From positions 6,614,385 to 6,678,384 of the forward strand of contig NC_081398.1 of assembly GCF_030684315.1 (NCBI RefSeq): a stretch of DNA of 64,000 nucleotides. The letters are read 5' to 3'. The position numbers and the translations under genes were made by a program. Origin of the DNA: Stegostoma tigrinum. Lineage: Eukaryota. Below, one piece after another: positions 1 through 42,800 of the stretch. The notes under the pieces are model-generated. The model made no database searches. It saw only the letters and a list, made by a program, of their open reading frames with translations, and was not told where the DNA came from. Each line of letters opens with the position of its first letter. Position 1 is the stretch's first letter.

Positions 1-880
1 GAGAACACAGGATCCCATGGAAATTATCCCTAAGAATCCCTGGAGCGAGGGATTTAATGGTTTATTGTGTCCTACAGAAACTCACCGTCCCACAGCAGAC
101 CCACATTCTCAGCAGACGTCACTGTGCAAAGCTGCTTTGAACCTCCGCCTTTTGAAGTAGATACTGCAGACTGTTTGCTTTGCTGCAAAGCCTGGGCAGT
201 TTCTGTGTTTCCCGAGTAACTAAACTCAGTTTCCAGTGCTTCCCTGATGTGAAATAGCGTCCGTCTGCTGCTAAACAGATTGCTCCCTGCTTGTCTAAAT
301 ATATCCTTTAGAATATAAGACTTGACATGGCTCTGCTGTAGAAAATCGATTTAGGCCGAAACATTGAATGTTTTCAAGAAGGCGTTCAATCCCATTCTTT
401 GGGTGGGATGGGATCATTGGATGATCAGCCACGAGCCTATTGAACAGGCTCAGGAGGCTGAATGGTCTGCTCCTGTTCCAATGTTCTATGCTCCGATGTG
501 TCCGATTTAAAACAATGTTATCAATTATACTTCTTTACTGAAATACACTCATTAATTTGGGGTTTTTTTCAAGAAACTATCACTACATACATTAAGCTTT
601 GCTTGTGCACAATTTTAAGTGAATTTTTCAACCTTAAGCTAAAAACTCTCCTGTGTTTTACAACTCTGTTTCAATCACCTGTTACACTGTTCCCTTCTGT
701 CAGTATTTCTAGCTGTTTTTGTAACAGATATCTCCGCTTTCAGGCGTTTTTTGTGTCAGCAAGTGGAGCTTTTGAAATAAAAACATTAAATGGTTCAAAA
801 ATAACGATGACCACAGTAATCGTGTGACTACTCTTCACAAGGACCTCCCAGGATGTTCTCAGAAGTCAGTGGCAGACAGC
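1..880 (+). other. Paralogous copy of the last exon/3' UTR region of gene A; probably the 3' end of another activating-type gene lying upstream of the window
   Basis: 1-60 (gagaacacaggatcccatggaaattatccctaagaatccctggagc) aligns with 14740-14800 (gagaacatgggaaccaatgggaattatccttaagaatccctggagc), which directly follows the gene A stop; colinear similarity continues to ~880 vs ~15690; AATAAA near 776. Confidence 0.65.
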
Positions 881-4339: not shown

Positions 4340-4497
4340 GGAGATCACTTCCTGCCTGGTGTTGGCCAGAACGCAAGCGAACAGGAAGGCGAAAAAGCAG
4401 AACTAACAGTTTGGAAAGACTGCGGGTCTCACAAAACCCCGTCATCATTCTGTTGCAATCGGTGAGAGCAGGCAGCCAGAGCGTGAGCAGGACGGCA
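4340..4497 (+). promoter_or_regulatory. Putative proximal promoter/5' UTR of gene A with ETS (PU.1-type) cores
   Basis: CACTTCCTG at 4346-4354 and ACAGGAAG at 4381-4388; block conserved at 33885-34039 (gene C) and, diverged, at 30480-30625 (gene B, minus). Confidence 0.45.
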
Positions 4498-4540
4498 ATG
4501 GACTCTGATCTCCATCTCATCCTTCTGTCTCTCTGTGTCG
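4498..4540 (+). CDS. Gene A exon 1, signal peptide MDSDLHLILLSLCV
   Basis: gcaATGG Kozak context, hydrophobic core, phase-1 donor G|GTGAGT; near-identical to 34040-34082. Confidence 0.85.
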
Positions 4541-5278
4541 GTGAGTGAGTTCAATCTTATTCCAATGTGCCACCAAATTGGCTTCTGATTCAGACTGAGT
4601 CCTTCCCTTCACCAGCCACTCCACGGCTCAAAGCTGTTGCTTACCCTGATGGTGTGGGCAAGTTGCCAGAAGCTGCTTTCAATTCAGCTCCTGGTTAAGA
4701 AATCTCAAAGATAATCAAGTTCCAAAACAATAGTTTGGACATTATCGCGTGTAACCAGAAAAATAAGGCCCCTCATGGAAGCAAGTTAACTCTTACAGTC
4801 CTGGGTTGGCAACTAATGGGGCATCTGGCCCTGATTCCAAAGAGCAGTGTCCATCCCTAGAAGTGTCCAGAGTTGGTGGACTGATTTATTGTGGTCCTAT
4901 GTCCCAAGATACAATGGAAAGTGTTGTTTTGAGTGCTGCACAGGCAGAGTGTGCCATAAAGAGTGTGTCAGGGTGGCAGAACAGAGTGCAGAATGCAGGG
5001 TTACAGATGTTGCAAATGTGTAGAGAGAGAGAAAGATCAGAATTAACGTTGAGAAGATGATTCAAAGTTTTGATAACAGCAGGGAAGAAGTTGATTTGTG
5101 CATCTGTCCAGACACGTATTCAAACTTTTATATCCTCTGCCTGATGGAAAAGAGTGGAAAACAGTATAGGAGAGCTGGGAGGGGCCTATGGCATTAAGAA
5201 TATGAGAAATATGGGTAGAAATTGGCCATCTGGCCCCATCGAGCCTACCCACCATTCAATAAGATCATGGCTGATCTT

Positions 5279-5850
5279 AGTGGGTTTTGAGAAGATTTGT
5301 AGCTCAGGTTGAGGTTCTGGATGTGAGTTTGCTCGCTGAGCTGGAAGGTTAGTTTTCAGATGTTTCATCACCATTCTAGGTAACATCATCAGTGAGCCTC
5401 CGACGAAGCGCTGGTGTTATGTCCCGCTTTCTATTTATCTGGTTAGGTTTCCTTGGGTTGGTGATGTCATTTCCTGTTCTTTTTCGCAGGGGATGGTAGA
5501 TTGGCTCCAAATCAATGTGTTTGTTAATGGAGTTCCGGTTGGAATGCCATGCTTCTAGGAATTCTCGTGCATGTCTCTGCTTGGCTTGTCCTAGGATGGG
5601 TGTGTTGTCCCAATCAAAGTGGTGTCCTTCCTTATCCGTATGTAAGGATACGAGTGATAGTGGGTCATGTCGTTTTGTGACTAGCTGATGTTCATGTATT
5701 CTGGTGGCTAGCTTTCTGCCTGTTTGTCCAATGTAGTGTTTGTCACAGTTCTTGCAAGGTATTTTGTAGATGACGTTCGTTTAGCAAAACCTAGAATGGT
5801 GACGAAACATCTGAAAACGAACCTTCCAGCTCAGCGAGCAAACTCACATC
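5279..5850 (-). mobile_element. 5'-truncated Penelope-like element with inverted terminal repeat and 13-bp target-site duplication
   Basis: Nearly identical to the GIY-YIG element at 24060-24962; catggctgatctt duplicated at 5266-5278 and 5851-5863; ~60-bp inverted repeat 5319-5380 vs 5789-5851; the homologous site in gene C (~34790) is empty. Confidence 0.85.
5356..5396 (-). ncRNA. Minimal hammerhead ribozyme-like motif in the Penelope terminal repeat
   Basis: Minus strand ctca-CTGATGA-t-gttacc-tagaat-ggtgat-GAAA-c-atc-tga: CUGANGA and GAAA cores around a helix II, loopless helix III; CpG-decayed relative to the 24094 copy. Confidence 0.5.
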
Positions 5851-6289: not shown

Positions 6290-9265
6290 TATAGTGACTG
6301 GAAGGGGTGACAGTTATAGGGAAGGATTTAGAGGCTGCAGGAGGTGACAGCAATTGGGAGGGGTGTAGGGGCTGGAGGGAGTGACAGAGATAGGGAGGGG
6401 ATGTAGGGGCTGGAGGGGGTGACAGAGATAGGGAGGGGGTGTAGGATATGGAGCAGGTTACAGTGACAGGGAGGGGTGTAGGGGCTGGAGGGAGTGACAG
6501 AGATAGGGAGGGGGTGTAGGGGCTGGAGGAGGTTACAGAGATAGGGAGGGTGTAGGGGCTGGAGGGGGTTACAGAGATGGGGAGGGGGTGTAGGGTCAGG
6601 AGGAAGTTACAGAGATAGGGAGGGGGTGTAGGGGCTGGAGGAGGTGACAGAGATAGGCAGGGATGTAGAGGCTGGAGGAGGTGACAGATATAGGGAGGGG
6701 GTGTAGGGACTGGAGGGGGTTACAGATATAGGGAGGGGGTGTAGGGGCTGGAAGAGATAACAGAGATACGGAGGGGTGTAGGGGCTGGAGGAGGTTACAG
6801 AGATAGGGAGGGGTGTAAAGTCAGGAGGAGGTGACAGAGATAGGGAGGAGTGTAGGGTCAGGAGGAGGTTACAGAGATAGGCAGGGGTTGTAGAGGCTGG
6901 AGGAGGTGACAGAGATAGGGAGGGGGTGTAGGGGCTGGAGGGGGTTACAGAGATAGGGAGGGGTGTAGGGGCTGGAGGAGGTGACAGAGATAGGCAGGGA
7001 TGTAGTGGCTGGAGGAGGTGACAGAGATAGGAAGGGGTGTCAGGGCTGGAGGGGGTTACAGATATATGGAGGGGGTGTAGGGGCTGGAGGAGGTTACAGA
7101 GATAGGGAGGGGTGTAGGGGCTGGAGGGGATTACAGAGATAGGGAGGGGTGTAGGGGCTGGAGGAGGTTACAGAGATAGGGAGGGGTGTAGGGTCAGGAG
7201 GAGGTTACAGTGATAGGGAGGGGGTGTAGGGGCTGGAGGGAGGTTACAGATATAGGGAGGGGTGTAGGGGCTGGAGGAGGTTACAGAGATAGGGAGGGGT
7301 GTAAAGTCAGGAGGAGGTTACAGAGATAGGGAGGGGTTGTAGGGGCTGGAGGAGGTTACAGAGATAGGGAGGGGTGTACGGTCAGAAGGAGGTTACAGAG
7401 ATAGCGAGAGGGTGTAGGGGCTGGAGGGGGTGACAGAGAAAGGGAGGGGGTGTACGGGCTGGAGGGGGATACAGAGATAGGGAGGGGTTATAGGGGCTGG
7501 AGGGCGTTACAGAGACAGGGAGGGGGTGTAGGGGCAGGAGGAGGTTACAGAGATAGGGAGGGTGTGTAGGGGCAGGAGGAGGTTACAGAGATAGGGAGGG
7601 TGTGTAGGGGCAGAAGGAGGTTACAGAGATAGGGAGGGATGTAGAGGCTGGAGGAGGTGACAGAGATAGGGAGGGGGTGTAGGGGCTGGAGGGGGTTACA
7701 GAGATAGGGAGGGAATGTTGGGGCTGGAGCTGGTGACAGAGATAAGGAGGGGGTGTAGGGGCTGGAAGAGGTTACAGAGATAGGGAGGGGTGTAGGGGCT
7801 GGAGGGGGTTACAGAGATAGGGAGGGGTTATAGGGGCTGGAGGGGGTTACAGAGATAGGGAGGGGGTGTAGGGGCAGGCGGAGGTTACAGAGATAGGGAG
7901 GGTGTGTAGGGGCAGGAGGAGGTTACAGAGATAGGGATGGTGTGTAGGGGCAGAAGGAGGTTACAGAGATAGGGAGGGATGTAGAGGCTGGAGGAGGTGA
8001 CAGAGATAGGGAGGGGGTGTAGGGGCTGGAGGGGGTTACAGAGGTAGGGAGGGAATGTTGGGGCTGGAGCTGGTGACAGAGATAAGGAGGGGGTGTAGGG
8101 GCTGGAAGAGGTTACAGAGATAGGGAGGGGTGTAGGGGCTGGAGGGAGTTACAGAGATGGGGAGGGGGTGTAGGGTCAGGAGGAGGTTACAGAGATAGGG
8201 ATGGGGTATAGGGGCTGGAGGAGGTGACAGAGATAGGCAGGGATGTAGTGGCTGGAGGAGGTGACAGAGATAGGAAGGGGGTGTCAGGGCTGGAGGGGGT
8301 TACAGATAGAGGGACGGAGTGTAGGGGCTGGAGGGGTTTACAGAGATAGGGAGGGGCATAGGGGCTGGAGGAGGTTACAGAGATAGGGAGGGTGTGTAGG
8401 GGCAGGAGTAGGTTACAGAGATAGGGAGGGATGTAGAGGCTGGAGGAGGTGACAGAGATAGGGAGGGGGTGTAGGGGCTGGAGGGGGTTACAGAGATAGG
8501 GAGGGAGTGTTAGGGCTGAAGCTGGTGACAGAGATAAGGAGGGGGTGTAGGGGCTGGAAGAGGTTACAGAGATAGGCAGGGATGTAGTGGCTGGAGGAGG
8601 TGACAGAGATAGGAAGGGGGTGTCAGGGCTGGAGGGGGTTACAGAGATACTGAGGGGTGTAAAGTCAGGAGGAGGTTACAGAGATAGGGAGGGGTGTAGG
8701 GTCAGGAGGAGGTTACAGTGATAGGGAGGGGTTGTAGAGGCTGGAGGAGGTTACAGAGATAGGGACGGGGTGTAGGGGCTGGAGGGGGTGACAGGGATAG
8801 GGAGGGGGTATAGGGGCTGGAGGGAGTTACAGAGATAGGGAGGGAGTGTAGGGGCTGGAGGGGGTTACAGATATAGGGAGGGGGTGTAGGGGCTGGAAGA
8901 GATAACAGAGATACGGAGGGGTGTAGGGGCTGGAGGAGGTTACAGAGATAGGGAGGGGTGTAAAGTCAGGAGGAGGTGACAGAGATAGGGAGGAGTGTAG
9001 GGTCAGGAGGAGGTTACAGAGATAGGCAGGGGTTGTAGAGGCTGGAGGAGGTGACAGAGATAGGGAGGGGGTGTAGGGGCTGGAGGGGGTTACAGAGATA
9101 GGGAGGAGTGTAGGGGCTGCAGGGGGTTACAGAGATGGGGAGGGGGTGTAGGGTCAGGAGGAGGTTACAGTGATAGGGAGGGTGTGTAGGGGCTGGAGGG
9201 GGTTCCAGAGATAGGGAGAGTGTGTCGGGGCAGGAGGAGATTCCAGAGATAGGGAGGGGTGTAGG
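6290..9265 (+). repeat. G-rich ~37-38-bp minisatellite (GGAGGAGGTTACAGAGATAGGGAGGGGTGTAGGGGCT)n, ~3 kb, gene A intron 1
   Basis: Directly visible tandem array of roughly 75-80 units. Confidence 0.95.
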
Positions 9266-10134
9266 CTCTGGACGAAGTTCCGTTGGGAGCCTTGAGCTAC
9301 CACTGGGGATTGCAGACTAGGCTGAGGGTTTGATACTGAGGTGTGAGGCTGCTGCTAAACTGGGAGATGAGACAGCAGGGTGGGAATAGCTGGGAGCAAG
9401 GTCGGGAAGAGTGGAAAATGGAAGAGCATTGATGGCCCAGATCAGGTCACATGGAGCTGCGGGTTCCCAAAGTGAAAGACTGAAGCAGGGAGCGGGCCCA
9501 GGTCTCCTCGCTATTATATTGTAGCTGGTCCCGGAGATATATGAATGCAGTGGCCTGGTATGGGATCTGTGACGGCGATGTGTGAGGGGAAGGTGCGACA
9601 GTATGTTCCAAAGTGGGTGTAGTTAGGAAGCCTGAGATAATGGGAACTGCAGATGCTGGAGAATCCAAGATAACAAAGTGTGAATTTGGATGAACACAGC
9701 AGGCCAAGCAGCATCTCAGGAGCACACAAGCTGTCGTTTCGTGCCCAGACCCGGCTTCTCCCAATGTCACCTCCTCCCCTGTCAATACCCCCATCGTGAA
9801 CGGATCGATCGGAAAGCTGGCTTCCAAGGGAATGATAATGTCACAGAGAGTACCTGTCGTGAACCAGGAACAGAATCAGAGACCGTACAGCGTGGAAACA
9901 CAACCATTACCTCTGCTGCTTTCGGCTGAAAGGAACATGCCAGCAGCGATTAGACCCTGCAATCTAATTGAGGGATTCACAGTGCTTTATATACAGAATA
10001 ACAGATCACTGGGAGTGAGTTACATTAAGCTGTTTGGGAAACAGAGTCTCCCTATCCCTGGGAGCTGGTTTTTCAGCTGGGAGAGATTTATTCGGGATTC
10101 CTAAATGACTGTTTGCTGTTTTGCTCTCCCACAG

Positions 10135-10503
10135 CGATGATAAAGGGAAAGGGATTCACAGTGAACCAACCGGATCGATTGGAGGCTGTGGAAGGGGGAT
10201 CGATCGAGATCCCGTGCACATTCACTTACCCAGACAGTTACAGACCCCCACGGATCAACATCTTCTGGAGAAGGTCGGAGTATCACGGGGAATTTATCTT
10301 CAATTTGTCACGGGGATACACTCACCCTAAATACTGAGGGCGAATTGACTTCCTGGGATCACCGGACACGGAGAGGACAGGAACCATCCGGATGAAGAAG
10401 CTGGGATTGCGGGATACAAACCGTTATTTCTGTCGGGTGGCTATAACAGGAAATAAGAGTGAGGCCTGGCAAAGCATCCCAGGGACCCGCCTTACTGTCC
10501 GAG
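10135..10503 (+). CDS. Gene A exon 2, V-set Ig domain (PILR/Siglec-like) with premature TGA at 10335
   Basis: Acceptor ctctcccacAG, donor GTAAGT; AMIKGKGFTVNQPDRLEAVEGGSIEIPCTF...WRRSEYHGEF...HPKY*GRI...YFCRVAITGNKSEAWQSIPGTRLTVR; frame continues intact after the stop. Confidence 0.9.
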
Positions 10504-10624
10504 GTAAGTTCCGGCACCCTTTCCCCTGATTCCCTGCCCGTTGACCCGATGCCGGGGACAGTGATCTCAGGATCAGTCTGTCCCAGGCTCAGGAACGTGT
10601 GGGATGTTCAAGTTCAACCCAGTC

Positions 10625-13020
10625 CCTGCAGAGACATTAACACCCCCTCCCCCTCACACCCCAGGGTCAGAGACACTAAGACCCCCTCCCCCTCACTCCC
10701 CAGGGTCAGAGACACTAACCCCCCCCCCTCCGTCTCACTCCCCAGGGTCTGAGACTCCACCACCCCTCTCCACCTCACTCCCCAGGGCCAGAACCACTAA
10801 CAACCCTTTCCCCCTCACTCCCCAGGGTCAGAAACACTAACACACCCTCCCCCTCACTCCCCAGGGTGAGAGATACTAACACTGCCCAACCCCTCACTCC
10901 CCAGGGTCACATCACTAACACTCCCCTCCTCCTCACTCCCCAGGGTCAGAGACACTAACAACCCCCATCCCCTCACTCCCCAGGGTCTGAGACTCCAACA
11001 ACCCCCTCCACCTCACTCCCCAGGGTCAGATACACTAACTCCCCTCACCCCCTCACTCCCCAGGGCCAGAAACACTAACACCCCCCATTTCCTAACTCCC
11101 CAGTTTCAGAGAAACCCCCCCTCTCCCCCTCACTCCCCAGGGTGAGAGACACTAACAAGCCCTCCCTCTCACTCCCCAGGGTCAGAGACACTAAGAACCC
11201 CTCCCCCTCACTCCCCAGGGTCAGAGACACTAACTCCCCTCACCCCCTCACTCCCCAGGGCCAGAAACACTAACACCCCCCATTTCCTAACTCCCCAGTT
11301 TCAGAGAAACCCCCCCCCTCCCCCTCACTCCCCAGGGTGAGAGACACTAACAATCCCTCCCTCTCACTCCCCAGGGTCAGAGACACTAAGAATCCCTCCC
11401 CCTCACTCCCCAGGGTCAGAGACACTAACTCCCCTCACCCCCTCACTCCCCAGGGCCAGAAACACTAACACCCCCCATTTCCTAACTCCCCAGTTTCAGA
11501 GAAACCCTCCCCTCCCCCTCACTCCCCAGGGTGAGAGACACTAACAAGCCCTCCCTCTCACTCCCCAGGATCAGAGACACTAAGAACCCCTCCCCCTCAC
11601 TCCCCAGGGTCAGAGACACTAACTCCCCCCATCCCCTCACACCCCAGGGTCATGGACACTAACAGCCCCTCCCCCCGACTCCTCAGGGTCAGAGACACTA
11701 ACACACCCTCCTCCTCACTCCTGAAGGTCAGAGACACAAACACTCCCCACCCCCTCACTCCCAGGGTCAGAGACACTAACACACCCCATCCCCATCACTC
11801 CCCAGGGTCAGAGACACTAATACACCCTCCCCCTCACTCCCCAGGGTCAGAGACACTAACATCCCCTCCCCCTCACTCCCCAGGGTCAGAGACACTAACA
11901 TCACCTCCCCCTCACTCCCCAGGGTCAGAGACACTAACACACCCTCCCCCTCACTCCCCAGGGTGAAAGACACTAAGAACCCCTCCCCCTCACTCCCCAG
12001 GGTCAAAGACACTAACACCCCCTCCCCCTCACTCCCCAGGGTCAGAGACACTAACACCCCCTCCCCCTCACTCCCCAGGGTCATAGACACTAACACACCC
12101 CTCACCCTCACTCCCCAAGGTCATAGGGACTAACACCACCCACCCCCTCACTCCCCAGGGTCAGAGGCACTAACAACCCTCACCCCCTCACTCCCCAGGG
12201 TCAGAGACACTAACACCCCCTCCCCCTCACTCCCCAGGGTCAGAGACACTAACACCCCCTCCCCCTCACTCCCCAGGGTCAGAGACACTAACACACCCCA
12301 CCCCCTCACTCCCCAGTGTCAGAGACACTAACACCCCCTCCCCCTCACTCCCCAGGGTCAAAGACACTAACACACCCCTCACCCTCATTCCACAGGGTCA
12401 AAGACACTAACACCCCCTCCCCCTCACTCCCCAGGGTCATAGACACTAACACACCCCTCACCCTCATTCCACAGGGTCAAAGACACTAACACCCCCTCAC
12501 CCTCACTCCCCAGGGTCATAGAGACTAACACCCCCTCCCCCTCCCTCCCCAGGGTCAGAGACACTAACACACCCCACCCCCTCATTCACTGGGTCAGAGA
12601 CATTTAAACCCCCACCCCCTCACTCCCCAGTGTCAGAGACACCAACACCCCCCACCACCACCCCTACACACCCTAGGGTCACAAAGTGACACCCCTGAAC
12701 ACACCCCAGAGTCACAAACTGACAGCCCCCTCACTCCCCAGGGTCACAAAAAGATACCCCCATTCTACACAGGGTCAGAGACACTAACACCCCCATCCCC
12801 CCCAGGTTCAGAAACAATAGCAACCCCCACACTCCCCACACTCCCCAGGATCACAAACTGACATCCCCTCCCCTCACTCCCAGTGGTCAAACACCCTGAC
12901 ACACTCCCCACACTCCCCAGGGTCAGAGACACTAAACCCCCAACTCACTCCCTAAGGCCGTAGACACTGATACCCCTCACTCCCCAGGGCCAACGTCTCT
13001 GGCCATCCCGTCTCCCCAGG
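10625..13020 (+). repeat. C-rich ~38-39-bp minisatellite (CCCCTCACTCCCCAGGGTCAGAGACACTAACACCCCCT)n, gene A intron 2
   Basis: Visible tandem array, degenerating after ~12650. Confidence 0.95.
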
Positions 13021-13123
13021 GTCTGCTCTCTCAGTGTATTTCCTCTGGTTTCTCACCCCAGCCTCAGCTCTTTCTCCCCCTTCTGGTCCCACTTCATTGG
13101 GCTGGACTCCTGTATTTGAACAG

Positions 13124-13312
13124 CGCAGAGACCAACGACTGCGACAGCGTCGGTTCCCTCCTCAGTGAGTGCATCCTCCGAGCACAGTGCAGATGGTGAG
13201 GACCCACTGGCTCAGGGCCTCGTCCTCATCATCAGGGCGGTCATCGCTTTCACAATCCTGGCAACTCTTTGGCTGGTTGGAATTTATCTAATGAAGAGGG
13301 AGGAAGTTGCAG
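13124..13312 (+). CDS. Gene A exon 3, Ser/Thr stalk plus TM with charged Arg (AQRPTTATASVPSSVSASSEHSADGEDPLAQGLVLIIRAVIAFTILATLWLVGIYLMKREEVA)
   Basis: Acceptor tttgaacAG, donor GTAAGC, 189 nt, phase 1-1, open frame; Arg codon AGG at 13234-13236; starts AQRPTT like the gene B stalk exon. Absent from the ORF track. Confidence 0.85.
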
Positions 13313-13539
13313 GTAAGCTGTGAGCTCAGAACATGTCACTGTTTGCCCTTACATAGACAAGTGCAATGTTTTTATTAGAAACCACACTGGGTCAATCCAG
13401 TTTTCACACCAAAGTATAAGATGGTGGAGCACCAGACCTGATAATAATCTTAAGCCATGCATGGACAAAGGAGCTGCATCCCATCGAGCATTCACTCAAC
13501 CAATTGTGGCTTCAGGGAGCGCTCACAAGCTGCAATCTG

Positions 13540-14520
13540 TGTGTTTCAGGGGCAAACTGCCCACTCGTATATAGGATGGTGGTTGTCACTGTCAGAGTTC
13601 AGTCATCTCAGCTCTGTGGGGATTTCCTCAAGGTACTGTCCTCAGGCCATCAATCTTCCATTCCTTCCTCAATCCCCTTCCCTCTATCATAAGGTCAGAG
13701 GTGGGGAAGTTCGCTGATGTTTACACAATGTTCAGCACCATTTGTGACTCCTCATACACTGAAGCAGCCCATGTTCACATGCAACAAGATCCGATCAATT
13801 TCCAGACTTGGGTTGACAAGTGGCATCTAACATCATGCCACACAAATGCCAAGGAATGACCATCTCCAATAATAGACAATCCACCACTGCCCCTTAACAT
13901 TCAATGGTGTTACCATCACTGAATCCCACCAACCCCCCCACCCCCCCCCCCACCCCACTATGGTGGTTACCCTTGGTCAGAATCTCAACTGGATTCACCA
14001 CATAAGCACAGCGGCTACAAGAGCAGGCCAGAAGCTGGGAACACCGCAGTGATTAATTCACCTCTTGATTCCCCTCAAAACCTCTCTATCATCGGCAAGA
14101 AATAAGTCAGGAGTGTGATGGATTACTCCCCACTTGCCTGGATAGGTTCAGCCTGAACAACATTCAAGAGGCTCGACACCATCCATGACAAAGCAGCCCC
14201 CACATCCGCAAACATCCACTCCCTCCACCAATGAGACTCAGTCGCACTGCAGCACCTCCCAAAGGCTGCCTTGACAGCACCTTCCACGACCTCTTGAAGG
14301 CCAGGGGCAGCAGATACATGGGAACAGCGTCACCTGCAAGTGCCCTTCCGAGCCATTCCCCATCCTGACTTGGAAAAATATCGGCCGTTCCTTCGGTATT
14401 GCTGGGTCAAAGTCCTGGAACTCCCTCCACACAGGATTGTAGCAATCCTAGAAGACAGCTAATCCCAATCTTCTCAAGGTGCAAATAGGGATAGGCAATA
14501 AATGCTGGAGCAAGCCAATG
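13540..14520 (+). mobile_element. CR1/L2-clade LINE 3' fragment (decayed RT C-terminus)
   Basis: Homologous to 47400-48440 and 19420-20350. Confidence 0.75.
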
Positions 14521-14702: not shown

Positions 14703-14725
14703 AATCGTCTGATGGAAACATGTGA
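14703..14725 (+). CDS. Gene A probable last coding exon, short tail (E)SSDGNM*
   Basis: Long polypyrimidine tract ending gatttcAG; phase-1 reading stops at TGA 14723-14725; AATAAA near 14957, 15459 and 15586. Unspliced read-through of exon 3 would instead end GKL* at 13323; either tail is short and Tyr-free. Confidence 0.6.
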
Positions 14726-16859: not shown

Positions 16860-19419
16860 CTGGCAGGGGTTGGGAGGGTAGAAAGGGGGTGGGAAGGGGT
16901 AGGTGAGTGATCCCGTTGGGAATTTCCCCCAAACAATCTCAAGAAGGGGTCCGGAGTTGGGAAGGAAGAAGGCAGGAGAGGGGGAATGTCACCGGCTCAT
17001 TTGGCCACGTTCAGCTCCTACCCTCTTCTCTCATACCTTCTCCTCCCCTGAGAAATGGTTGGGGTGCATAAGACCAGGGAGTGTGTCCCCCTCAAATCCC
17101 TCCAACACTCACCCTTACATGCTGCCCCTCAACTGGCAGTGGGGAGGGGGGGGGAGGAATCTCCCAAAGTGACCTGGGTCATCGTCATGGTGACACGTTG
17201 CAACCCAACATTGTGCGAAACAGAAGATGCAGAAAAGAGGCCATTCGGACCTCTCAAGCATGCCCTGCCATTCAGTAGGGTCATGGCTGATTGACCATCT
17301 CCATACCCTGTTCCTGCTTTACCTCCCCCCACCCCCAGGCCCCTGGATCCCTCAGACCCTACTCATGCTCCCCCAGATTCTAACAGGGGGTAAATCCTTT
17401 GGCCTCACCTCAAACAGTCAGGTTTCCAGGCCAATGCTAAAAGGAGAATGTTCCAGAGCGTTGTGGTTGAAGTTCCACATTCCCCACACACCCCCCCACC
17501 CCCCTCCCCGCTACCCCAGCCACCAAAATGAAAACCCTATAAAGCAGCAACACTGGGCTAACCAACACCTCCCGGGGGTCCTGAAGTCATGGAAGATGTG
17601 TTGCTAATGAAGGCCTCATTCGATGTTGACAACACCATTTGGACACATGCAGGGCTGGGACTTAGGAGGACGTCTAGTCAGATGGGGTAGATGAGCTTGG
17701 CCAGTCGCCGAGGGGCCACAGCCATTGCCTGATGAGAGCAGGTGAGGTTGTCACACCTCTGTGGGACCTTGCTCACTGGAAGGCCGGTGCCCTAGGAACG
17801 CGACAAGGCAAGACTCCGAAAAGAGGATGTGACAAAGAGGCATGGGAAGACTCCACTGTTCCAGCCGCTTAGCGAAAATCACAGCTGAACTTTGACCTCA
17901 GACCCATACTGATAGGGCTTGAAGGGCTGAATGGCCTACTCCCATTCCTATTTCTCCGTTACCCCATCAGATTCCCGAAGGTACTCTGAGCAAATGAATC
18001 CCCACCCACAGGTCTTGCCATTTCCCAATTCCCTATTTCTCACACTGTCCATCTCTAGGTCCTACCTCACCAGCGGGCACTGTGGAGCACCAAGATTTGA
18101 AAGATTGAAGGCAGATGGCACACTCACATCTGAAACCCTCTTGTCCTGGCTGCCTCAGCCCTGTTACAATCTGAAGGGTTCCCATTTGCCGCCTCCATCT
18201 CTTGAACCAAACAGCCAATGACAATTGGCAAATCGGCTAGATGAAGCATCACGCCTGGGACTGGGCAAAATGCAGGGGCTGGGCAGGGTCTGTGAGAGAG
18301 CTTGCTCACTCTATTGACCCCATGGCCTGTTGCCATTTGCCCTTCCTGTGCTGTGCAGGGTTAGAGAGTGTCAGACTGGGAATAGGGTAAAGGGTGACGC
18401 ATAGAATCATGTCGTACAGAACAGACCCTTCGGCCCATCGAGTCTGGGCAGCCCAAAATACAATCCGATCTGCGTGAATCCCAATTTCCCACACAAGCCT
18501 TAAATGTGATGACATTCCGTGTGCTCATCCAAGAGCTTTATAAGGGAGGCTTCCTTTCTCACCTGCCCTCCCACAGGCAGTACATTCCAGACCCCCTCAC
18601 CACCCCCGGCTATAAAATCTGTTCCTCAAATTCCCTCTGAACGTCCTCCCTTTCACTTACAAATAATAAACCCCTCATTATTGGCCCTTCGACTAAGGGC
18701 GACGGTTCCTTTCTATCTGCCTTGTCCACATCCCTCAGGGTCTCTGTCAGGTCCCCCCTCAGCATTCCCTGCTCCAAAGAAAACAATCCGAGCTTCTCCA
18801 GCTTCTCTGCATTGCCTGAACACTCTACCCCAGGGGGACATCCTGGTGAATCTCCTCTGCACCCCCTCCAGTGCAAATCACCTCCTTGCTACAGCCTGGG
18901 GTCCAGAACACTCCAGAGCCAAGATTAGGCCAGAGGGTTAATGTGTGGCATGGAATGGCTGATGCCAATGTGGTACGCGCCTCTCTAAGTTGGCACATTG
19001 AACGCAGCTCTTGAAACTATTAACCCGAGGTGTTTCCCCCCCAGTTGGCCCTTGTCCTTTGCTGGGGAGCTGTCTAGGGCTAGACCACTGCAGGGAGAGA
19101 GAGCGCACAGAAGGTGTAAGGTTACACCTGAATGCACTGCGACACAGCCATCCTGAACAGAAATAGGCCATTCAGCCCCTCAACCCTTCAATGATGTCAC
19201 AGTGGAGCCGTACCTGCCGTGACTTCCTGTTTGCACCTACTACCCAATAATATTTGTACTAATATACCATTAACACACAGTGAATTGTTATCAAGGGGGA
19301 GCAATGGAGAAGGGGAGGGAGGGACAGAGAGGGGAAGGAAAGAGCAACAGAGGGGGTGGGAGGGCCAACACTGAGGGTTTGGAGACGACAAAGAGTGGAG
19401 GGAGGGCAACTGCGAGGGG

Positions 19420-21950: not shown

Positions 21951-24059
21951 AGAGGTAGAGTTGTGACAGAGAATCAAGAATAAGGAAACTAAATTCTTTT
22001 GTTCCTGTTCCCTCTCTGTGTCGCTCTCACTCCCTGCAACTTTTCTGGTTTGCATCTTCCTCCACTTTCTCCCTGTGGAAAGGGGAAGTTGCTATTCAAC
22101 TTAGGCAGGCAGCACAGGAAGGGGTATTGCCAGGGGTGGGGGCAGTGGGAGAATCAATTGTGTGCTGCTAAAGACATTTCCCTACAAAACTGCTCTTCAC
22201 TTTCTCTCTAAAATGTGATTTTCTGGCACACTCCCAACATCCAACCATTGCCCAAGAGGCCACCCAATCTATTTGAAGAGCTTCACTCAGTTTCAGACTA
22301 ACCACAGCTTCTGGCCTGTGACTGACATCTTCTCGGGTCAGGTTATCAGAACAGGAGAACGCCATTCAGCCCCACTAGAGCACACCAACTGCCCCTGCTT
22401 TCTCCACAACATAAACACATCAATCCCACCCTTAAAAACCCTGACTGACCGCGGTTTTATCTGGAGGATTTGGCAGAGTGTCGTAGGAAGCTGGTTTTCC
22501 CTTCTCAGGAAATCTTGTTCTTTGACATCTCCCTCTTGCACTGGCCTGAGTCACCTTTATCTCTTTCTGAGGAGAATTCGGGGCTTAGGAGATGCCCACG
22601 ATGTGGAGTGTGAAATCCTTGGTGACTTTCCAAAGGGAAAGGGGTAGATATTGGTGTGTGGGAGATATGATGGGGGAAAACAGGGAAGGATCAGTTGGGT
22701 AGCCTGCACTAGCATGACGGGCCCAATGGTCACCTCCCGAGCTGCGCATGAGGTGTCACTAGAATTCTAGAATTTTTACAGTCCAGAAGAGGCCCTTTGG
22801 CCCATCAATCTGCACACAAAATGGACAGGAGTCCCACTTTCGAACAATCGGCCCATCGCCTTGAATACTATGATACTTCGGTCGCACTCCTGAAGCCATT
22901 CCTGTAGAAACAGAGGGAAGAGGATCATGACTGATCATCAAAGTCAGCCCTCTGTTCCTGCTTTCTCTCTCACATACTCATCGATCCCTTTAGCACCAAG
23001 TTCAATCTCCCACACATTCTTGAAAACATACAATCCTGTTTCCACGACTGTAAAGAACTATTCTCACTGCTTCGGAAAGCCAGTCAACGTCAGCAGAGAC
23101 CCCTCCCACCCCTGTTGTAACCCCATCTGCCATCTTCGATTGGCAGAAGATACAAAAGCTTAAACACATGCACCAACAGATTTCAAGAAGGGATAGTAGG
23201 AACTGCAGATGCTGGAGAATCTGAGATAACAAGGTGTAGAGCTGGATGAACACAGCAGGCCAAGCAGCATCAGAGGAGCAGGAAGGCTGACGTTTCGGGG
23301 GAAGAAGGGTCTAGACCCATAAGGTCAGCCTTCCTGCTCCTCTGATGCTGCTTGACCTGCTGTGTTCATACAGCTCTACACCCTGTTATCTTTGAGTGTT
23401 GGAGTTCGGGTGTTGTGCTGAAGTTGTACAGGATATCGGTGAGGCATCTTCTGGAGTGCCGTGTCCAGTTGTGGTCTCCCTGTTAGAGCGTTGCTATTAT
23501 TAAGCTGGAGAGGGTTCAGAAGAGATTTACCAAGATTTTGCAGGGAATGCAAGATTTGAGCTATAAGGAGAGGCTGAATAGGCTGGGAATTTTATCACTG
23601 GAGCTTAGGAGTTTAAGTTTATAGAGTTTTATGATTTAATGAAGGCTGTAGATAATGTGATTGGGAGGTGTCTTTTCCCTAAACTGGGGTATTTCAACAC
23701 AAGGGGGCACATTTTTGAGGTGAGATTTTAAAAATACAGGAGAGGAAATCCAAAATACACAGAGAGTGGTTAGTGTCTGGAATGTGAATACTGTTACATT
23801 CTTTAAAGGGCATTTAGATAGCCACATGAATAGGAAAGGTTAGGAAGGATATGGGCCAAGAGCAGGCAGGTGGGACTAGTTTAGTTTGGGATTACGGTCA
23901 GCATGGACTGGATGGGCTGAAGGATCTGTTTCTCTGTCGGATGACTCTATGATTCCAAGCCAAATGGACTGGGACGGTCTGCGGAGACGCGAGGAAAATG
24001 CCACTTTCTCACCGGCAATCAGGACGTCATTGGTTCTCACGAAGGAAGAAGTTAGCGGA

Positions 24060-24962: not shown

Positions 24963-25012
24963 GAAGAAGTAAGCGGACTGTGGCGAGGGCCGGAGGGGCA
25001 AGGGTTCCTTAC

Positions 25013-25198
25013 CTCGCTGCTGATCTTTCTTCTTGCAGACATAGAGAGCCGCTGCTATTGCCACGGAAACGAGGAGCACAAACACCGTGGCAACCGCGAT
25101 CCCTAGAATCCAGGCCAACTTTCTTCGATTGGTAGTGAGTGTGGTGGTGGAAATGGTGCTGGTCTTCACCGTGGGATTGGAAGTAGTCGGTCGCTGTG
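25013..25198 (-). pseudogene. Gene B stalk/TM exon (AQRPTTSNPTVKTSTISTTTLTTNRRKLAWILGIAVATVFVLLVSVAIAAALYVCKKKDQQR), open and with intact splice sites
   Basis: Acceptor (tc)n-tgtttcAG, donor GTAAGG, 186 nt; homologous to 42813-42998. Confidence 0.85.
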
Positions 25199-33884: not shown

Positions 33885-34039
33885 GGCCACTTCCTGCCTG
33901 GTGTTGGCCAGAACGCAAGCGAACAGGAAGGCGAAAAAGCAGAACTAACAGTTTGGCAAGGCTGTGGGTCTCACAGAATCCCGTCATCATTCTGTTGCAA
34001 TCGGTGAGAGCAGGCAGCCAGAGCGAGAGCAGGACGGCA
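33885..34039 (+). promoter_or_regulatory. Putative proximal promoter/5' UTR of gene C with ETS cores
   Basis: CACTTCCTG at 33888-33896 and ACAGGAAG at 33923-33930; near-identical to the gene A block; no obvious TATA box. Confidence 0.45.
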
Positions 34040-34082
34040 ATGGGCTCTAATCTCCATCTCATCCTTCTGTCTCTCTGTGTCG
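34040..34082 (+). CDS. PILRA: Gene C exon 1, signal peptide MGSNLHLILLSLCV
   Basis: gcaATGG; donor G|GTGAGT; phase 1. Confidence 0.88.
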
Positions 34083-37000
34083 GTGAGTGAGTTCAATCTT
34101 ATTCCAATGTGTCACCAACTTGGCTTCTGATTCAGACTGAGTCCTTCCCTTCACCAGCCACTCCACGGCTCAAAGCTGTTGCTTACCCTGATGGTGTGGG
34201 CAAGTTACCAGAAGCTGCTTTCAATTCAGCTCCTGGTTAAGAAATCTCCAAGATAATCAAGTTCCAAAACAATGGTTTGGATGTTATCGCATGTAACCAG
34301 AAAAATAAGGCGCCTCATGGAAGCAAGTTAACTCTCATAATCCTGGGTTGGCAACTAATGAGCATCTGGCCCCGATTCCAAACTGCAGCGTCCGTCCCTA
34401 AAAGTGTCCAGAGTTGGTGGACTGATTTATTGTGGTCCTATGTCCCGAGATACAGTGGAAAGTGTTGTTTTGTGTGCTATACAGGCAGATTGTGCCATAA
34501 AGAGTGTGTCAGGGTGGCAGAACAAAGTGCTACAGACACAGAGAAGGTGCAGTGAGAGAGAGAGATCAGAATTAACATTCCAGAGGAATGCTCAAGAGTC
34601 TGAGAACAGCAGGGAAGAAGCTGTTCTTGAATATGTTATATTCAAACTGTTGTACATTCTGCCCAGAAAAGGGAGGGTGGAAGAGAGTATGAGGGTTGAG
34701 AGGGGTGCTTGATTGTACGGATATTAGAAATAGGAGCGGGAGCGGATCATCTGGCCTCATTGAGCCTGCCCCACTATTCAATAAGATCATGGCTGTTCTT
34801 TTCACAGATTCAGCTCCACTAACCCACCCGCTCACCATAACCCTTAATTCTTTTACTGTTCAAAAATCTATCTATCTCTGCCTTAAAAACATTCAGCGAG
34901 GTATCGTCATCTGATTCACTGGGCAGGGAATTCCACAGATTCATAACACTTTGGGTGAAGAAGTTCCTCCTGACCTCAGTCCGAAACCTGCTCCTCAGAA
35001 CAATCTCCAGGAATATCCTGGTGAAAGGATAGGGGTCCAAAGGAGTTTTGAAAGGAATTATCCCAGTGATCAGAGGAATTTTACGGGGAATCTTGAGGAA
35101 AGAGAGATTGCGAGAGGTGGAGAGGTGTGGGGGGAGAATCTTGTAACTGCAGTCAGCAAACCCCCCCCCCCCCATGGAGATTTCAGAGGGCTGTAGTGAC
35201 TGGAAGGGGTGATAGTGATAGGGAGGGATGTAGGGGCTGCAGGCAGTTACAGAGATTAGGAAGAGTGTGGGAGCTGGAACAGCTAACAGAGATAAGGAGC
35301 AGTATGGGGGCTGGAAGAGGTTACATAGGTAGGGAGGGGTGTCGCGGCTGGAGGAGGTTACAGAGATAAGGAGAGGTGTAGGGTTTGGAGGAGGTTGCAG
35401 AGATAGAGAGGTACAGGGGTCGGAAGAGGTGACAGAGATTGGGATGGGTGTAGGTGCGGGAGGAGATTACAGTGATCGGGCGGGGTGTAGGGTCAGGAGG
35501 AGGTTCCTGTGTGAGTTTTGAGTTACCACTGAGCATTTCAGACAAGGCTGAGGGATTAAAACTGAGGTGTGAGGGTGTTGCTAAACCAGGAGATGAGGCA
35601 GCAGGGAGGGAATAGCAGGGAGCAGGGTCAGGAATGTGTTCAGATTAAGGGGCAGTGGGTCCTTTTGCAATCTATTGAGGAGTGTAGAAAATGGAAGAGC
35701 GTCGATGGCTGAGATCAGGGCATGTGGAGCTGTGGATTCCCAAAGTGAAAGACTGAAACTGAGAGCTCCTCGTTATTACCTTGTGGCTGGTCTGGGAGAT
35801 ATATAAAGGCAGCGGTCTGGTATTGGATCTCAGATGGTGATGGGTGAGGGAAAGCGGATTTCACAATGGGGGTGGAGGGCCTGGAAGACAGTTGAGGCTT
35901 GTCCCCATGTAACCCCCTCCTCCGTCAGTACTCCCATCCCAAAAATATTGATTGGAAAGTTGGGTTCCAAGGGAAAGATTGTGTCACAGAGAGTACCCGT
36001 CCTGAACCAGAGGGGAACTCATCCAGTACCTCAGGGGCTTTAGGCTCAAAGGAACATACTAGCAGCAGCTACACTCTGGAATCTAATCAAGGAGTTTTGG
36101 GTGGTTTCTCCACAGAATAACATATCCAAGAGTGAGTTACAAATGTGTTGGTTCATTCATGGGATGAAGGCATTTCTGGCCAAGCAGCATTTATTACTGA
36201 TCCCTAATTGCCCAAGAGGGCAGTTAAGAGTCAACCACATTACTGTGGGTCTGAAGTCACATGTAGGCCAGCCCAGGTAAGGATGGCAGTTTCCTTCCCT
36301 TAAAGGGCATTAGTGAATCAGAAGGGTTTTCCCCCAGACAATTGCCGATGGACTCACGGTCATCATTAGGCATTAAATTCCAGACATTTTTATTTAATTC
36401 AAATCACACCATGAGGACTCAAACCAGGGACCCCAGAACATTGACTGGGTCTCTGGGTTAGAAGTCCAGCGATAACATCACGAGGCTATTCCTCCCCCCC
36501 ACCCCCCCGGGGCCAGATGTTCTGGGGTTAGCTTATATACAGAATAACAGATCACTGGGAGTGAGTTACATTAAGCTGTTTGGGAAACAGAGTCTCCCTA
36601 TCCCTGGGAGCTGGTTTTTCAGCTGGGAGAGATTTATTCGGGATTCCTAAATGACTGTTTGCTGTTTTGCTCTCCCACAGCGATGATAAAGGGAAAGGGA
36701 TTCACAGTGAACCAACCGGATCGATTGGAGGCTGTGGAAGGGGGATCGATCGAGATCCCGTGTACATTCACTTACCCAGACAGTTACAGACCCCCACGGA
36801 TCAACATCTTCTGGAGAAGATCGGAGTTTCACGGGGAATTTATCTTCAATTTGTCACGGGGATACACTCACCCTATATACCGAGGGCGAATTGACTTCCT
36901 GGGATCACCGGACACGGGGAGGACAGGAACCATCCGGATAAAGAAGCTGGGATTGCGGGATACAAACCGTTATTTCTGTCGGGTGGCTATAACAGGAAAT

Positions 37001-40000
37001 AAGAGTGAGGCCTGGCAAAGCATCCCAGGGACCCGCCTCACTGTCCGAGGTAAAACCCTATTTAGCGTTTCAGTATAACTTTCCGTACGGTGCCCATTTC
37101 ATTGCTTCGTTTAGTATTCATCTGTCCCTACACCCTCCCTATCCCTGTCACCCCCTCCAGCCCTTACACCCCCTCCCTATCCCTGTCACCCCCTCCAGCC
37201 CCTACACCCCCTCCCTATCCCTGTCACCCCCTCCAGCCCTTATACCCTCTCCCTATCCCTGTCACCCCCTCCAGCCCCTACACCCTCACCCTATCCCTGT
37301 CACCTCCTCCTGCGCCTACACCCCGTCCCTATCCCTGTCATCCCCTCCAGCCCCTACACCCCCTCCCTATCCCTGTCAGCCCCTACACCCCCTCCCTATC
37401 CCTGTCACCCCCTCCAGCCCCTAAACCCCTCCCTATCCCTGTCACCCCCTCCAGCCCCTACACCCCCTCCCTATCTCTGTAACCCCTCTCCACCCCTACC
37501 TATCTCTGTAACCCCCTCCAGCCCCTACACCCCCTCCCTATCTCTGCCACCCCCTCCAGACCCTACACCCCCTCCCTATCCCTGTCAACCCCTCCAGCCC
37601 CTACACCCCCTCCCTATCCCTGTCACCCCCTCCCTATCCCTGTCACCCCCTCCATATCCCTGTCACCCCCTCCATATCCCTGTCAGCCCCTCCTTATCCC
37701 TGTCACCCCCTCCAGCCCCTACACCCCCTCCCTATCCCTGTCACCCCCCCTGCCCCTACAACCCCTCCCTATCTCTGTAACCCCTCTCCACCCCTACCTA
37801 TCTCTGTAACCCCCTCCAACCCCTACACCCCCTCCCTATCTCTGCCACCCCTTCCAGACCCTACACCCCCTCCCTATCCCTGTCAACCCCTCCAGCCCCT
37901 ACACCCTCCCTATCCCTGTCACTTCCTCCAGCCCCTACACCCTCCCTATCCCTGTCACCCCCTCCAGCCCCTACACCCTCCCTATCCCTGTCACCTCCTC
38001 CATCCCCTACATCCCCTACATCCCCTCCATATCCCTGTCACCCCCTCCATATCCCTGTCACCCCCTCCATATCCCTGTCACCCCCTCCCTATCCCTGTCA
38101 CCCCCTCCAGCCCCAGACCCCCTCCGTATCCCTGTCATGCCCTCCAACCCCTACACACCCTCCCTATCCCTGTCACCTCCTACACCACCTCCCAATCCCT
38201 GTCATCCCCTACACCCACTCCCTATCCCTGTCACCCCCTCCAGCCCCTACACCCCGTCTCTATCCCTGCCACCTGCTCCAGCACCTACACCCCTCCCTAT
38301 ACCTGTCACCCCCTCCAGCCCCTACACCCCCTCCCTATGCCTGTCACCCCCTCCAGCCCCTGCACCTCTCCCTAACTCTGTCATCTCCTCCAGCCCCTTA
38401 CAGAAAATGGACACTGTCAAGTTCTAAATGAATGCAGAAAGGTTCAAAGTCAGGGCAAAATATGAGGTCAGACACCCCGACCAGTCAATGCCACACCTCC
38501 TCCCGTCCAGAAATAACATTAGTCCCCAAGCCCGTGAACGTTCCCCCCCCCATCACCTCTCCCTTGACCAGTACCTTGGTGGCACATCATTGAGAAGGCT
38601 GCAACCGGGGAGCGATGTAACGGCTCCATTAAAGCAAGAAACTCTTCATGGTTTCATTCTGCCGTTTCACCAAACCACAGAGGAAGTCTCGTGTCCAATG
38701 TGGCTGCTGCATGACTGAGAAAGCAGAGAGTTACACAAATGGTTCCTGGAGTGAGGAGCTAAGGGCAGGATGGTGGCCTAGTGGTATTACCGCTTAGAAA
38801 CCCAGGTAATGTTCCTGGGACCTGGGTTCGACTTGAATTTGAATTCAAATAAGAAAAAACTGTGGAATTAAGCATCTACTGAATGCCATTGACCACTGTT
38901 AATTTGTTGGAAAAACCCATCTGGCTCACTCATGTGCTTCAGGATGTGAACTGCCATCCTTACCTGGTCTTTCATGCCTGTCCAGCCACTCTTGACTGTC
39001 CTGTGGGTAATTAGGAACGGGCAATAAATTCTGGGCCGAGTCAGAGATACCCCTCGTCCTGTGAACAATTTTGTTTTTAAAAACTCAGTGATCAGGAGAG
39101 ATCATATGATTGTCCTCTTCAGAGGGCTGAAGGCTGGGGTTAGATCTGATACAGATTTTCAAGATTGTGAGCAGGAGAAGCTGGTCCAGTCCGTAAAAGG
39201 AACAAGAACAAGAGGGCAGAGGTGTGGATTTAAAGGAGATGTGCCAACAAAGCTAGGGTGGTTCTGCAGCCTAGCTGGGGTGGCCATACCAAATTACCCA
39301 CGGTGCCCAGGGATGCGTAGAAGAGATGGGTAGGCCATGGGAAATGCAAGGTGTCAGGGATAAGGGGGTTGAGACTGGGTGGGATGCTGTTGAGGGAGTT
39401 GATGGGCCAAATGGTCTGCTTCCACACTGTAGGGATTCTATGATTGGATCCTGTGTGGGGAAAGCAACTTTGCCACCTGGCAAATGGCTAGGGCCTGGAA
39501 TGCACTGCCTAGAAAAGTATTGGGAGCAGGTTCAACTGGGCGAATCAAGAGGGGCTTTTGATGGTTATTGGGATAGACGTAAGGTGCAGGGATTTGGGGT
39601 TAAAGACAGGAGATCGGCACTGGACAACAACTAAGGCTGGCACGATGGGCTGAATGGCCTCCGTAACAATTCTGTTCCTAACTCTGTGTGTGTCTCTTGG
39701 CCTTCCCCTCCTTGTTCTGACCCAAATCTATCAAACTGAGCATTGCCATTTCCAATTAACCCTCACCAGCGACCGCACCCCGCCCCCCCCGACCTCACAC
39801 CCCCAGACCCGCTCCCTGTTGTTTTGGGGGAAATGTGATGGGGAAAGCAGTTCACTAGTCTGAAGAGGCATTTTCCTGATTTCACTGCTGAATTGCCCCA
39901 GGTGCAACTTTGAGGTCACTTGCCCCTTGTTAAGACGTGTGCCCCCTCCCAATCACTGCAAAAAGCATCTTTCACATTTCAGCCAGTCTGTCAAAATGCA

Positions 40001-42755: not shown

Positions 42756-42800
<45 letters not shown>

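What the first reader, a model, noticed from the sequence alone, without database searches (positions are those of the whole stretch)
9986..10503. Sharply bounded gene-conversion-like tract homogenises the ligand-binding exon of genes A and C
Seen: the V exons differ at 8 of 369 nt (3 synonymous; Y/F, K/I, E/G, M/I; */R) and the ~148 bp upstream are identical (9987-10134 vs 36533-36680). Further upstream the intron is visibly much more diverged, and homology stops at the donor, where intron 2 is unrelated. A second high-identity patch covers promoter and leader (4345-4990 vs 33885-34530). Established: conversion limited to ligand-binding exons occurs in SIGLEC5/14 and SIGLEC11/16. Inference: the same concerted evolution keeps both receptors matched to one ligand.
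Basis: partly seen in the sequence, partly recalled or inferred. Interest (0 to 1): 0.7.

Follow-up and report, generated by a model that had tools for sequence, protein, structure and literature searches.

The report
Gene-converted shark PILR pair, activator broken
In the zebra shark, two neighbouring immune-receptor genes, a predicted 'off' switch and a predicted 'on' switch that now carries a stop codon, share a 98%-identical outer exon while their membrane anchors differ completely; six other shark species show the same split, most likely from repeated gene conversion, as already described for the mammalian PILR receptors.

Summary
Confirmed and real. Window 9987-10507 matches 36533-37053 at 513 of 521 nt, against 80% in flanking intron 1. 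A second patch (4346-4990) is 94.7%. The genes are shark PILR-like receptors. C is intact, with two ITIM-type motifs. A has a transmembrane Arg and a short tail, but a TGA stop at V-exon residue 67. B is a broken inverted copy of C. Contigs from two samples carry the stop and both of A's tract edges, which argues against an assembly collapse. In 7 of 7 shark species with both receptor types, the V domain groups by species. The stalk/TM exon groups by receptor type (100/98 support). AU tests reject the alternatives. This is recurrent gene conversion of a known kind (mammalian PILRA/B, SIGLEC11/16); my searches found no report of it in sharks. Two corrections. The sharp edges are where homology ends, not drops to background. 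And conversion cannot currently be keeping two working receptors matched, because A is null in this assembly. Selection for ligand matching is inferred only.

The parts
9987..10507 (+). Conversion tract, gene A copy: 148 nt of intron 1, V exon 10135-10503, 4 nt of intron 2
   Evidence: 513 of 521 identical to 36533-37053
36533..37053 (+). Conversion tract, gene C copy (V exon 36681-37049, intact)
   Evidence: 100% to named records P0002/P0003
10335..10337 (+). Premature TGA in gene A's V exon (CGA in C; B also has C at this base)
   Evidence: present in contigs of runs X1 and X3
4346..4990 (+). Second, less identical conversion patch in A: ~150 nt upstream, leader exon 4498-4540, start of intron 1
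   Evidence: 609 of 643 (94.7%) vs 33888-34530
33888..34530 (+). Second patch, gene C copy (leader exon 34040-34082)
13124..13312 (+). Gene A stalk/TM exon with an Arg near the outer end of the helix (activating type)
   Evidence: 55 of 59 aa identical to the whale shark activating-type protein; one match in the genome
13062..13123 (+). Upstream alternative acceptor region used by an A-type spliced contig; 62 nt shifts the frame and ends before the TM
   Evidence: run X8 contig; translation
14703..14725 (+). Gene A last coding exon (short tail, no tyrosine motif)
   Evidence: matches the end of P0027
42813..42998 (+). Gene C stalk/TM exon, uncharged helix
48567..53830 (+). Gene C cytoplasmic exons (48567-48594, 50180-50232, 52719-52762, 53690-53830); the last holds two ITIM-type motifs at 53708 and 53789
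   Evidence: record P0003
16599..31189 (-). Gene B: inverted, head-to-head broken copy of C. The leader-exon region does not align; the V exon (~29058-28715) has a 26-nt deletion and has lost its donor GT; the last exon is frame-shifted
36072..36532 (+). In C: an older diverged copy of the tract's first ~48 nt (to 36149), then a ~385-nt multi-copy repeat insertion that abuts the tract's 5' edge

Best explanation
Genes A and C are a shark PILR-like pair whose V exons are 98% identical while their anchors and tails are unrelated, most likely because non-allelic gene conversion has repeatedly copied the V exon between them. Shown: the identity pattern, gene structures, the stop in A, and V trees by species against TM trees by receptor type. 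Inferred mechanism: during recombinational repair, one gene 26.5 kb away serves as template. Copying is possible only where homology exists (upstream region, leader, intron 1, V exon), so it stops at the V donor. Separate events of different age left patches of 98.5% and 94.7% on an 80% background. Inferred function: C is an inhibitory receptor for sialylated O-glycans (two ITIM-type motifs; PILRA R126, R72, F76, G78 and Q140 equivalents kept). A is its activating counterpart, likely coupled through the TM Arg to an ITAM adaptor. Conversion likely lets the activating copy track a fast-evolving binding surface and act as a counter-trap for microbes that exploit the inhibitory receptor. After the last event A took a CpG-type C>T nonsense change, so in this assembly the pair is broken, paralleling SIGLEC16P and SIGLEC14-null. 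The direction of copying is not determined.
For: Tract 513/521 vs flanks 949/1182; it includes 148 intronic nt and synonymous sites. Identity is patchy, with 75-84% blocks between the two patches. V tree of 24 rows from 10 species: in 7 of 7 species with both types, an inhibitory-type V is sister to (in one catshark, unresolved within) same-species activating V domains; the label needs 8 changes vs 7.9 shuffled. Stalk/TM tree of the same rows: 1 change, 100/98 support, 0 of 500 shuffles as low. AU tests reject inhibitory V domains as one clade (p = 0.002), A with its whale shark TM-orthologue in the V tree (p = 4e-5), and A with C in the TM tree (p = 1e-45). A vs the whale shark activating gene: V 84/121, TM 55/59; A vs C: V 117/121, TM 13/54. 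A fused horn shark gene model shows the same, 120/122. Contigs of X1 and X3 (two samples, one study) cross A's 3' edge with no differences, X1 also crosses the 5' edge, and both carry the stop; C-type letters stand in X5 and X7. Precedent: PMC13358205, PMC2077338, PMC5701461, PMC6288428.
Against: A is null here, so ligand matching of two working receptors is not the current state. The pseudogene B shares in the exchange (V tract 93% to both; B-C TM region 95.4% vs 75-89% in most other blocks), which looks like a process indifferent to function. Five of the 8 A/C differences change the protein, no sign of constraint after conversion. Extra activating copies escape: 4 of 14 activating rows have lost the R126 equivalent (0 of 10 inhibitory-type), and the sevengill shark pair is only 66% identical in V. 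Cross-species data are protein models only, and three 'inhibitory' rows (P0007, P0008, P0009) were typed by TM exon because their models lack the tyrosine motifs. Conversion cannot be told from a double crossover by sequence alone.
Confidence: 0.8

Rival explanations
1. Conversion is real but is a neutral by-product of close tandem homology. It is tolerated rather than selected, and ligand matching is incidental.
For: Patches include ~450 nt of intron 1 and the pseudogene B. A is dead yet recently homogenised. PMC5701461 reports relaxed constraint on converted SIGLEC11/16 exons (passages).
Against: The most identical patch centres on the V exon here, and V domains pair by species in 7 of 7 species while diverging about 30% between zebra and whale shark. 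The activating TM exon is strongly conserved (55/59), so the activating gene was under constraint until recently.
Confidence: 0.3
2. A recent duplication or unequal crossover joined a fresh copy of one gene's 5' half to the other's 3' half (exon shuffling), with no conversion.
For: Homology ends exactly at the V donor. An orphan activating-type last exon upstream and pseudogene B show active birth and death at the locus.
Against: A single hybrid would be uniformly similar from promoter to V exon. Observed blocks run 72, 96, 97, 92, 75, 82, 84, 79, 100 and 98%. The event would have to recur in seven lineages.
Confidence: 0.07
3. Assembly collapse or chimera placed one V exon in two loci.
For: Both copies sit between long minisatellites. 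In X1 and X3 one contig is A-type at 10330/10335 and C-type at 10372/10394. One of the two samples could be the assembly's source.
Against: The copies differ at 8 sites. A-flank-to-tract contigs exist in short-read runs, with both A-type and C-type letters outside the assembly. An A-type V end is spliced to A's own downstream region in X8. Six other species show the pattern. The mosaic contig can arise from bubble removal in the contig graph.
Confidence: 0.02
4. Purifying selection kept an old V exon unchanged in both genes.
For: The core sialic-acid-binding positions are conserved across sharks.
Against: Intronic and synonymous sites are homogenised too, and orthologous V domains differ by about 30% between species while paralogues differ by 3%.
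Confidence: 0.01

Closest known systems
Mammalian PILRA/PILRB (conversion stated in PMC13358205 and PMC2077338, passages read; the primary paper, Wilson et al. 2006, PMID 16926269, was not held and not read)
   Same: Best structure-database hits (E 2e-19); single V domain, Thr/Ser-rich stalk, TM; inhibitory and activating pair; R126, R72, F76, G78 and Q140 equivalents kept; ectodomain homogenised by conversion; Bin3 (MEPCE-type), zf-CW and NYAP_N matches on the same contig.
   Different: Shark V keeps the B-strand Cys that the mammal-type hits lack. The activating anchor has an Arg near the outer end (Lys in two bamboo-shark-family species), whereas PILRB signals through DAP12 (PMC6235402; its mid-helix Lys is recalled). 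The marker genes are 2.8 Mb or more away and the immediate neighbours are B7/butyrophilin-like V exons. The activating gene is null here.
SIGLEC11/SIGLEC16 and SIGLEC5/SIGLEC14 (PMC5701461 passages and section 5; PMC6288428 passages)
   Same: Lineage-by-lineage conversion of the upstream region and V exon; V trees by species; frequent null alleles of the activating partner; a pseudogene can take part in conversion.
   Different: A different gene family (single V, no C2 domains). The primate pair arose within primates, whereas the shark pair spans several shark orders. Two separate patches here, and a third broken copy joins in.
Xenopus paired CEACAMs (PMC5112662; search listing and start of abstract only)
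   Same: Paired receptors outside mammals; the paper holds the term gene conversion 16 times.
   Different: A different family; not read further.

Membership tests
Gene conversion between paired receptors | Local identity far above flanking paralogous background, including silent and intronic sites | tested here: met
   513/521 vs 949/1182; 148 intronic nt identical
Gene conversion between paired receptors | Converted part groups by species, unconverted part by gene type | tested here: met
   7 of 7 species in the V tree; TM tree 1 change, 100/98; AU tests. Protein level only.
Gene conversion between paired receptors | Non-reciprocal transfer with a known direction | tested here: inconclusive
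   B sides with C at 4 and with A at 3 of the 7 A/C differences it covers; no direction
Gene conversion between paired receptors | Both partners are functional and bind the same ligand | tested here: not met
   A has an in-frame stop; binding not testable. Intact activating models exist in the six other species.
PILR family | Single V-set domain, mucin-like stalk, TM | tested here: met
   Pfam V-set; gene models
PILR family | V domain closest to PILRA/B, with the sialic-acid Arg (R126) and CC'-loop residues | tested here: met
   Top PDB hits PILRA/B; Arg in 20 of 24 rows, G78 in 24 of 24 (my labels for the last four positions in that call were off by one); residues named in PMC6235402
PILR family | Inhibitory member with ITIMs | tested here: met
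   Two ITIM-type motifs in C's last exon; phosphatase recruitment not tested
PILR family | Activating member coupling to DAP12 through a TM Lys | tested here: inconclusive
   A charged residue is present but is an Arg near the outer end; adaptor not tested
PILR family | Orthology to mammalian PILR by tree and synteny | tested here: inconclusive
   Shark and mammal-type V domains fall on one side of a 99/99 branch away from 4 of 5 other zebra shark V domains, with the long-branch L006 inside; synteny at contig level only
PILR family | Binding to sialylated O-glycoproteins | not testable with these tools
   Needs a binding assay
   No C2 exon in the models; Siglec-15, MAG and sialoadhesin score well below PILR

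The most novel reading that the evidence does not exclude
The shark PILR activating/inhibitory pair has been re-synchronised by V-exon conversion since before the living shark orders split, possibly continuing a pairing as old as jawed vertebrates. In zebra sharks the null activating gene still trades tracts with the working inhibitory gene, so mosaic and possibly restored activating alleles segregate today, a shark counterpart of the SIGLEC16/SIGLEC16P polymorphism.
Probability: 0.3. Interest if true: 0.62.

Novelty: new member of a known kind. Interest (0 to 1): 0.42.

Why it matters
It extends exon-limited conversion of paired immune receptors from mammals and frogs to cartilaginous fish, with a clean seven-species test. 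It shows the same sequel seen in human Siglecs: loss of the activating partner. It offers a natural comparison for whether conversion is selected or only tolerated, since zebra shark (null A), sevengill shark (pair drifted to 66%) and catshark (98%) sit at different stages. It also warns that automatic alpha/beta names for these genes do not follow their architecture. The mechanism itself is not new.

Tried and rejected
A more recent nested tract from the 230-nt identical run: not significant (p = 0.08). Reading the duplicated ~48 nt in C as proof of A-to-C direction: dropped, because that stretch belongs to a dispersed ~76-nt repeat. Clustering of within-species differences in loops I defined by hand from the PILRA alignment: significant with the sevengill pair (50 vs 42, p = 3e-6), not without it (22 vs 29, p = 0.09). 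Sequencing runs: no RNA holder listed; X5 and X6 had no contig on 12960-13610, X7 only an intronic piece, and no run covered the TM helix, which is no evidence on expression. No intact zebra shark activating protein was found, which is weak evidence. No V or TM exon was found for the orphan last exon in the 100 kb upstream. Downstream synteny could not be read past L025:6894 (N). Absolute dating was not attempted for want of a rate I could source. No fold or complex job was sent. Two papers were not held. No supplements were read; those of the mammalian PILR paper may bear on tract anatomy. The tuatara and caecilian multi-domain hits, the TM-less isoform P0002, duplicate isoforms and the V-only ray protein P0032 were left out of the, 36 trees.

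Full report
OBSERVATION. The window is G000:C58:6614385-6678384 of a 3.2-Gb genome. With tandem repeats masked, 9987-10507 matches 36533-37053 at 513 of 521 nt, and a third copy on the minus strand matches at 93%. Block identities along the 5' half of A and C run 72, 96, 97, 92, 75, 82, 84, 79, 100 and 98%. The tract differs from the four intron blocks that flank it (949 of 1182) at p = 5e-30. The second patch (609 of 643) differs from both background (p = 9e-19) and tract (p = 7e-4), so it is probably a separate, older event. A permutation of 279 three-way polymorphic sites reached the observed A=C run of 13 in 181 of 100,000 trials.

THE GENES. The exon encodes a V-set domain whose best solved relatives are PILRA/PILRB. 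C's product is 100% identical to records named PILR of Stegostoma tigrinum. The genome search found three close V copies, all in this window, among 42 candidates scored. C has leader, V, an uncharged TM exon and four tail exons ending in two ITIM-type motifs. A has leader, V with TGA at residue 67, a TM exon with an Arg near the outer end and a 7-residue last exon. B is an inverted, head-to-head copy of C with no alignable leader, a 26-nt deletion and lost donor at the V end, and a shifted last exon. The PILRA residues that PMC6235402 names for ligand binding (passages) are mostly kept: the R126 equivalent in 20 of 24 rows and G78 in 24 of 24. The A/C Y/F difference falls on the F76 equivalent. 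Bin3, zf-CW and NYAP_N matches lie on the same contig, 2.8 Mb or more away. The paper places PILRA beside ZCWPW1, PILRB and MEPCE; NYAP1 as a neighbour is recalled. Adjacent V exons are B7/butyrophilin-like. Orthology to mammalian PILR is likely but not settled.

EDGES. The 3' edge is the end of homology: A and C share no intron 2 beyond transposons, and their TM exons match at 13 of 54 residues. At the 5' edge, A's intron is collinear with C 35896-36149 at 77%. C then has a ~385-nt repeat insertion followed by the A-identical sequence, so the first ~48 nt occur twice in C. That stretch is part of a dispersed ~76-nt repeat, so it does not give the direction. The edges are sharp, but they are homology limits.

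ARTEFACT TEST. I laid 4 of 11 listed runs on 9290-10625. X1 and X3 (two samples, one study; whole-stretch cover) give contigs 10399-10625 and 10414-10625 without differences, and X1 gives 9704-10216 without differences, so A's flanks join the tract. Each has a contig 10305-10428 that differs from A only at 10372 and 10394, so it carries the stop. That mosaic may be a real allele or bubble removal in the graph. Either sample could be the assembly's source. X5 and X7 cover the V exon but not its unique intronic flanks, and X5 shows a spliced leader as a loose end, so I read them as RNA although their kind is not on record. They carry C-type letters at all seven listed sites, and X5 also has an A-type contig at 10244-10311. 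On 12960-13610 (4 runs), X8 has a 291-nt contig whose A-type V end is joined to an acceptor 62 nt upstream of the conserved one; that shifts the frame and ends before the TM.

CROSS-SPECIES TEST. Searches gave 24 rows from 10 shark species; isoforms, multi-domain tetrapod hits and a V-only ray protein were left out. Seven species have both types. In all seven, an inhibitory-type V groups with same-species activating V: identities 96, 86, 95, 87, 94, 98 and 66%; 8 label changes against 7.9 shuffled. The stalk/TM tree splits the two types with one change, 100/98 support, and 0 of 500 shuffles as low. AU tests reject the three crossed groupings (p = 0.002, 4e-5, 1e-45). Zebra A and the whale shark activating gene share 55 of 59 TM residues but 84 of 121 V residues. 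A fused horn shark model adds 120 of 122 between a V before an Arg-type anchor and a V before an inhibitory-type anchor. These species span five shark orders (taxonomy recalled). Limits: protein models only; three inhibitory rows typed by TM alone; trees used LG+G4 without the mixture model. Extra activating copies in white and basking shark have drifted, and 4 of 14 activating rows lack the key Arg.

MECHANISM. Shown: patchy homogenisation limited to the homologous 5' half, recurring in each lineage, with A now null. Inferred: non-allelic conversion between genes 26.5 kb apart (about 0.9). Inferred with less support (about 0.55): selection keeps V-exon conversions because they let the activating receptor follow a fast-changing binding surface, the counter-trap idea given for paired Siglecs in PMC6288428 (passages). 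The neutral alternative stays open, because intron and pseudogene B are converted as well and PMC5701461 found relaxed constraint. B has C at base 10335, and intact orthologues read through here, so the stop is derived in A, from CGA. It presumably postdates the last conversion over that site.

WHAT IS KNOWN. PMC13358205 (passages) lists PILRA/B with Siglec-5/14 and -11/16 as pairs under ongoing conversion, with frequent loss of the activating partner. PMC2077338 (passages) cites conversion at the PILR locus in six mammals; the primary paper was not held. PMC5701461 (passages and section 5) shows the same species-wise V clustering in primates. Searches for a shark report (listings and abstract starts only) found none, but the library lacks most subscription journals. 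Earlier notes of this scan describe similar shark and skate pairs; they are unchecked and not independent support.

VERDICT. A real, well-supported conversion tract and a new member of a known kind. The added value is the seven-species test in sharks and the confirmed null activating partner. Interest 0.42.

Noticed in passing
L019:9813-10000 and window 1-867: Orphan copy of gene A's last exon and 3' region (72-78% identical, acceptor intact), probably the remnant of a second activating-type gene; no V or TM exon found in the 100 kb upstream.
   Followed up: partly
window 6333-9265, 29204-29707, 35229-35505, 27948-28555, 37126-38398: The same 37/38-nt G-rich minisatellite lies in intron 1 of A, B and C and, inverted, in intron 2 of B and C, so the V exons of B and C are bracketed by inverted arrays. 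It could favour recombination; its genome-wide frequency was not checked.
   Followed up: no
window 42188-43048 vs 24963-25796; 50009-51160 vs 18133-19267: B and C show their own high-identity patches (95.4% around the TM exon, 93.1% around a tail exon) against 75-89% elsewhere.
   Followed up: partly
window ~10037-10148 and the matching parts of B and C: About 110 nt around the V-exon acceptor are identical in all three genes, including pseudogene B.
   Followed up: no
window 10305-10428 (runs X1, X3): A contig that is A-type at 10330/10335 and C-type at 10372/10394 in both samples: a segregating mosaic allele or a graph artefact.
   Followed up: partly
window 10281-10283: At the PILRA F76 equivalent, the activating copy has Tyr and the inhibitory copy Phe in both zebra shark and white shark (2 of 7 pairs).
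   Followed up: no
L017:5269-5607 (+) and L010:6917-7240 (-): B7/butyrophilin-like V exons upstream; the catshark model P0025 fuses the homologue of the first to a PILR-like gene, probably an annotation join.
   Followed up: partly
P0002, P0003, P0040 and other named records: Database alpha/beta names often contradict the architecture; a TM-less isoform of C is annotated (P0002); the horn shark locus is annotated as one fused 'pIgR-like' protein with repeated V-TM units.
   Followed up: partly
window 5319-5782 vs 24057-24540 and L019:8541-8844: A young multi-copy insertion (87-97% identical copies) in intron 1 of A, in B and upstream of the window.
   Followed up: no
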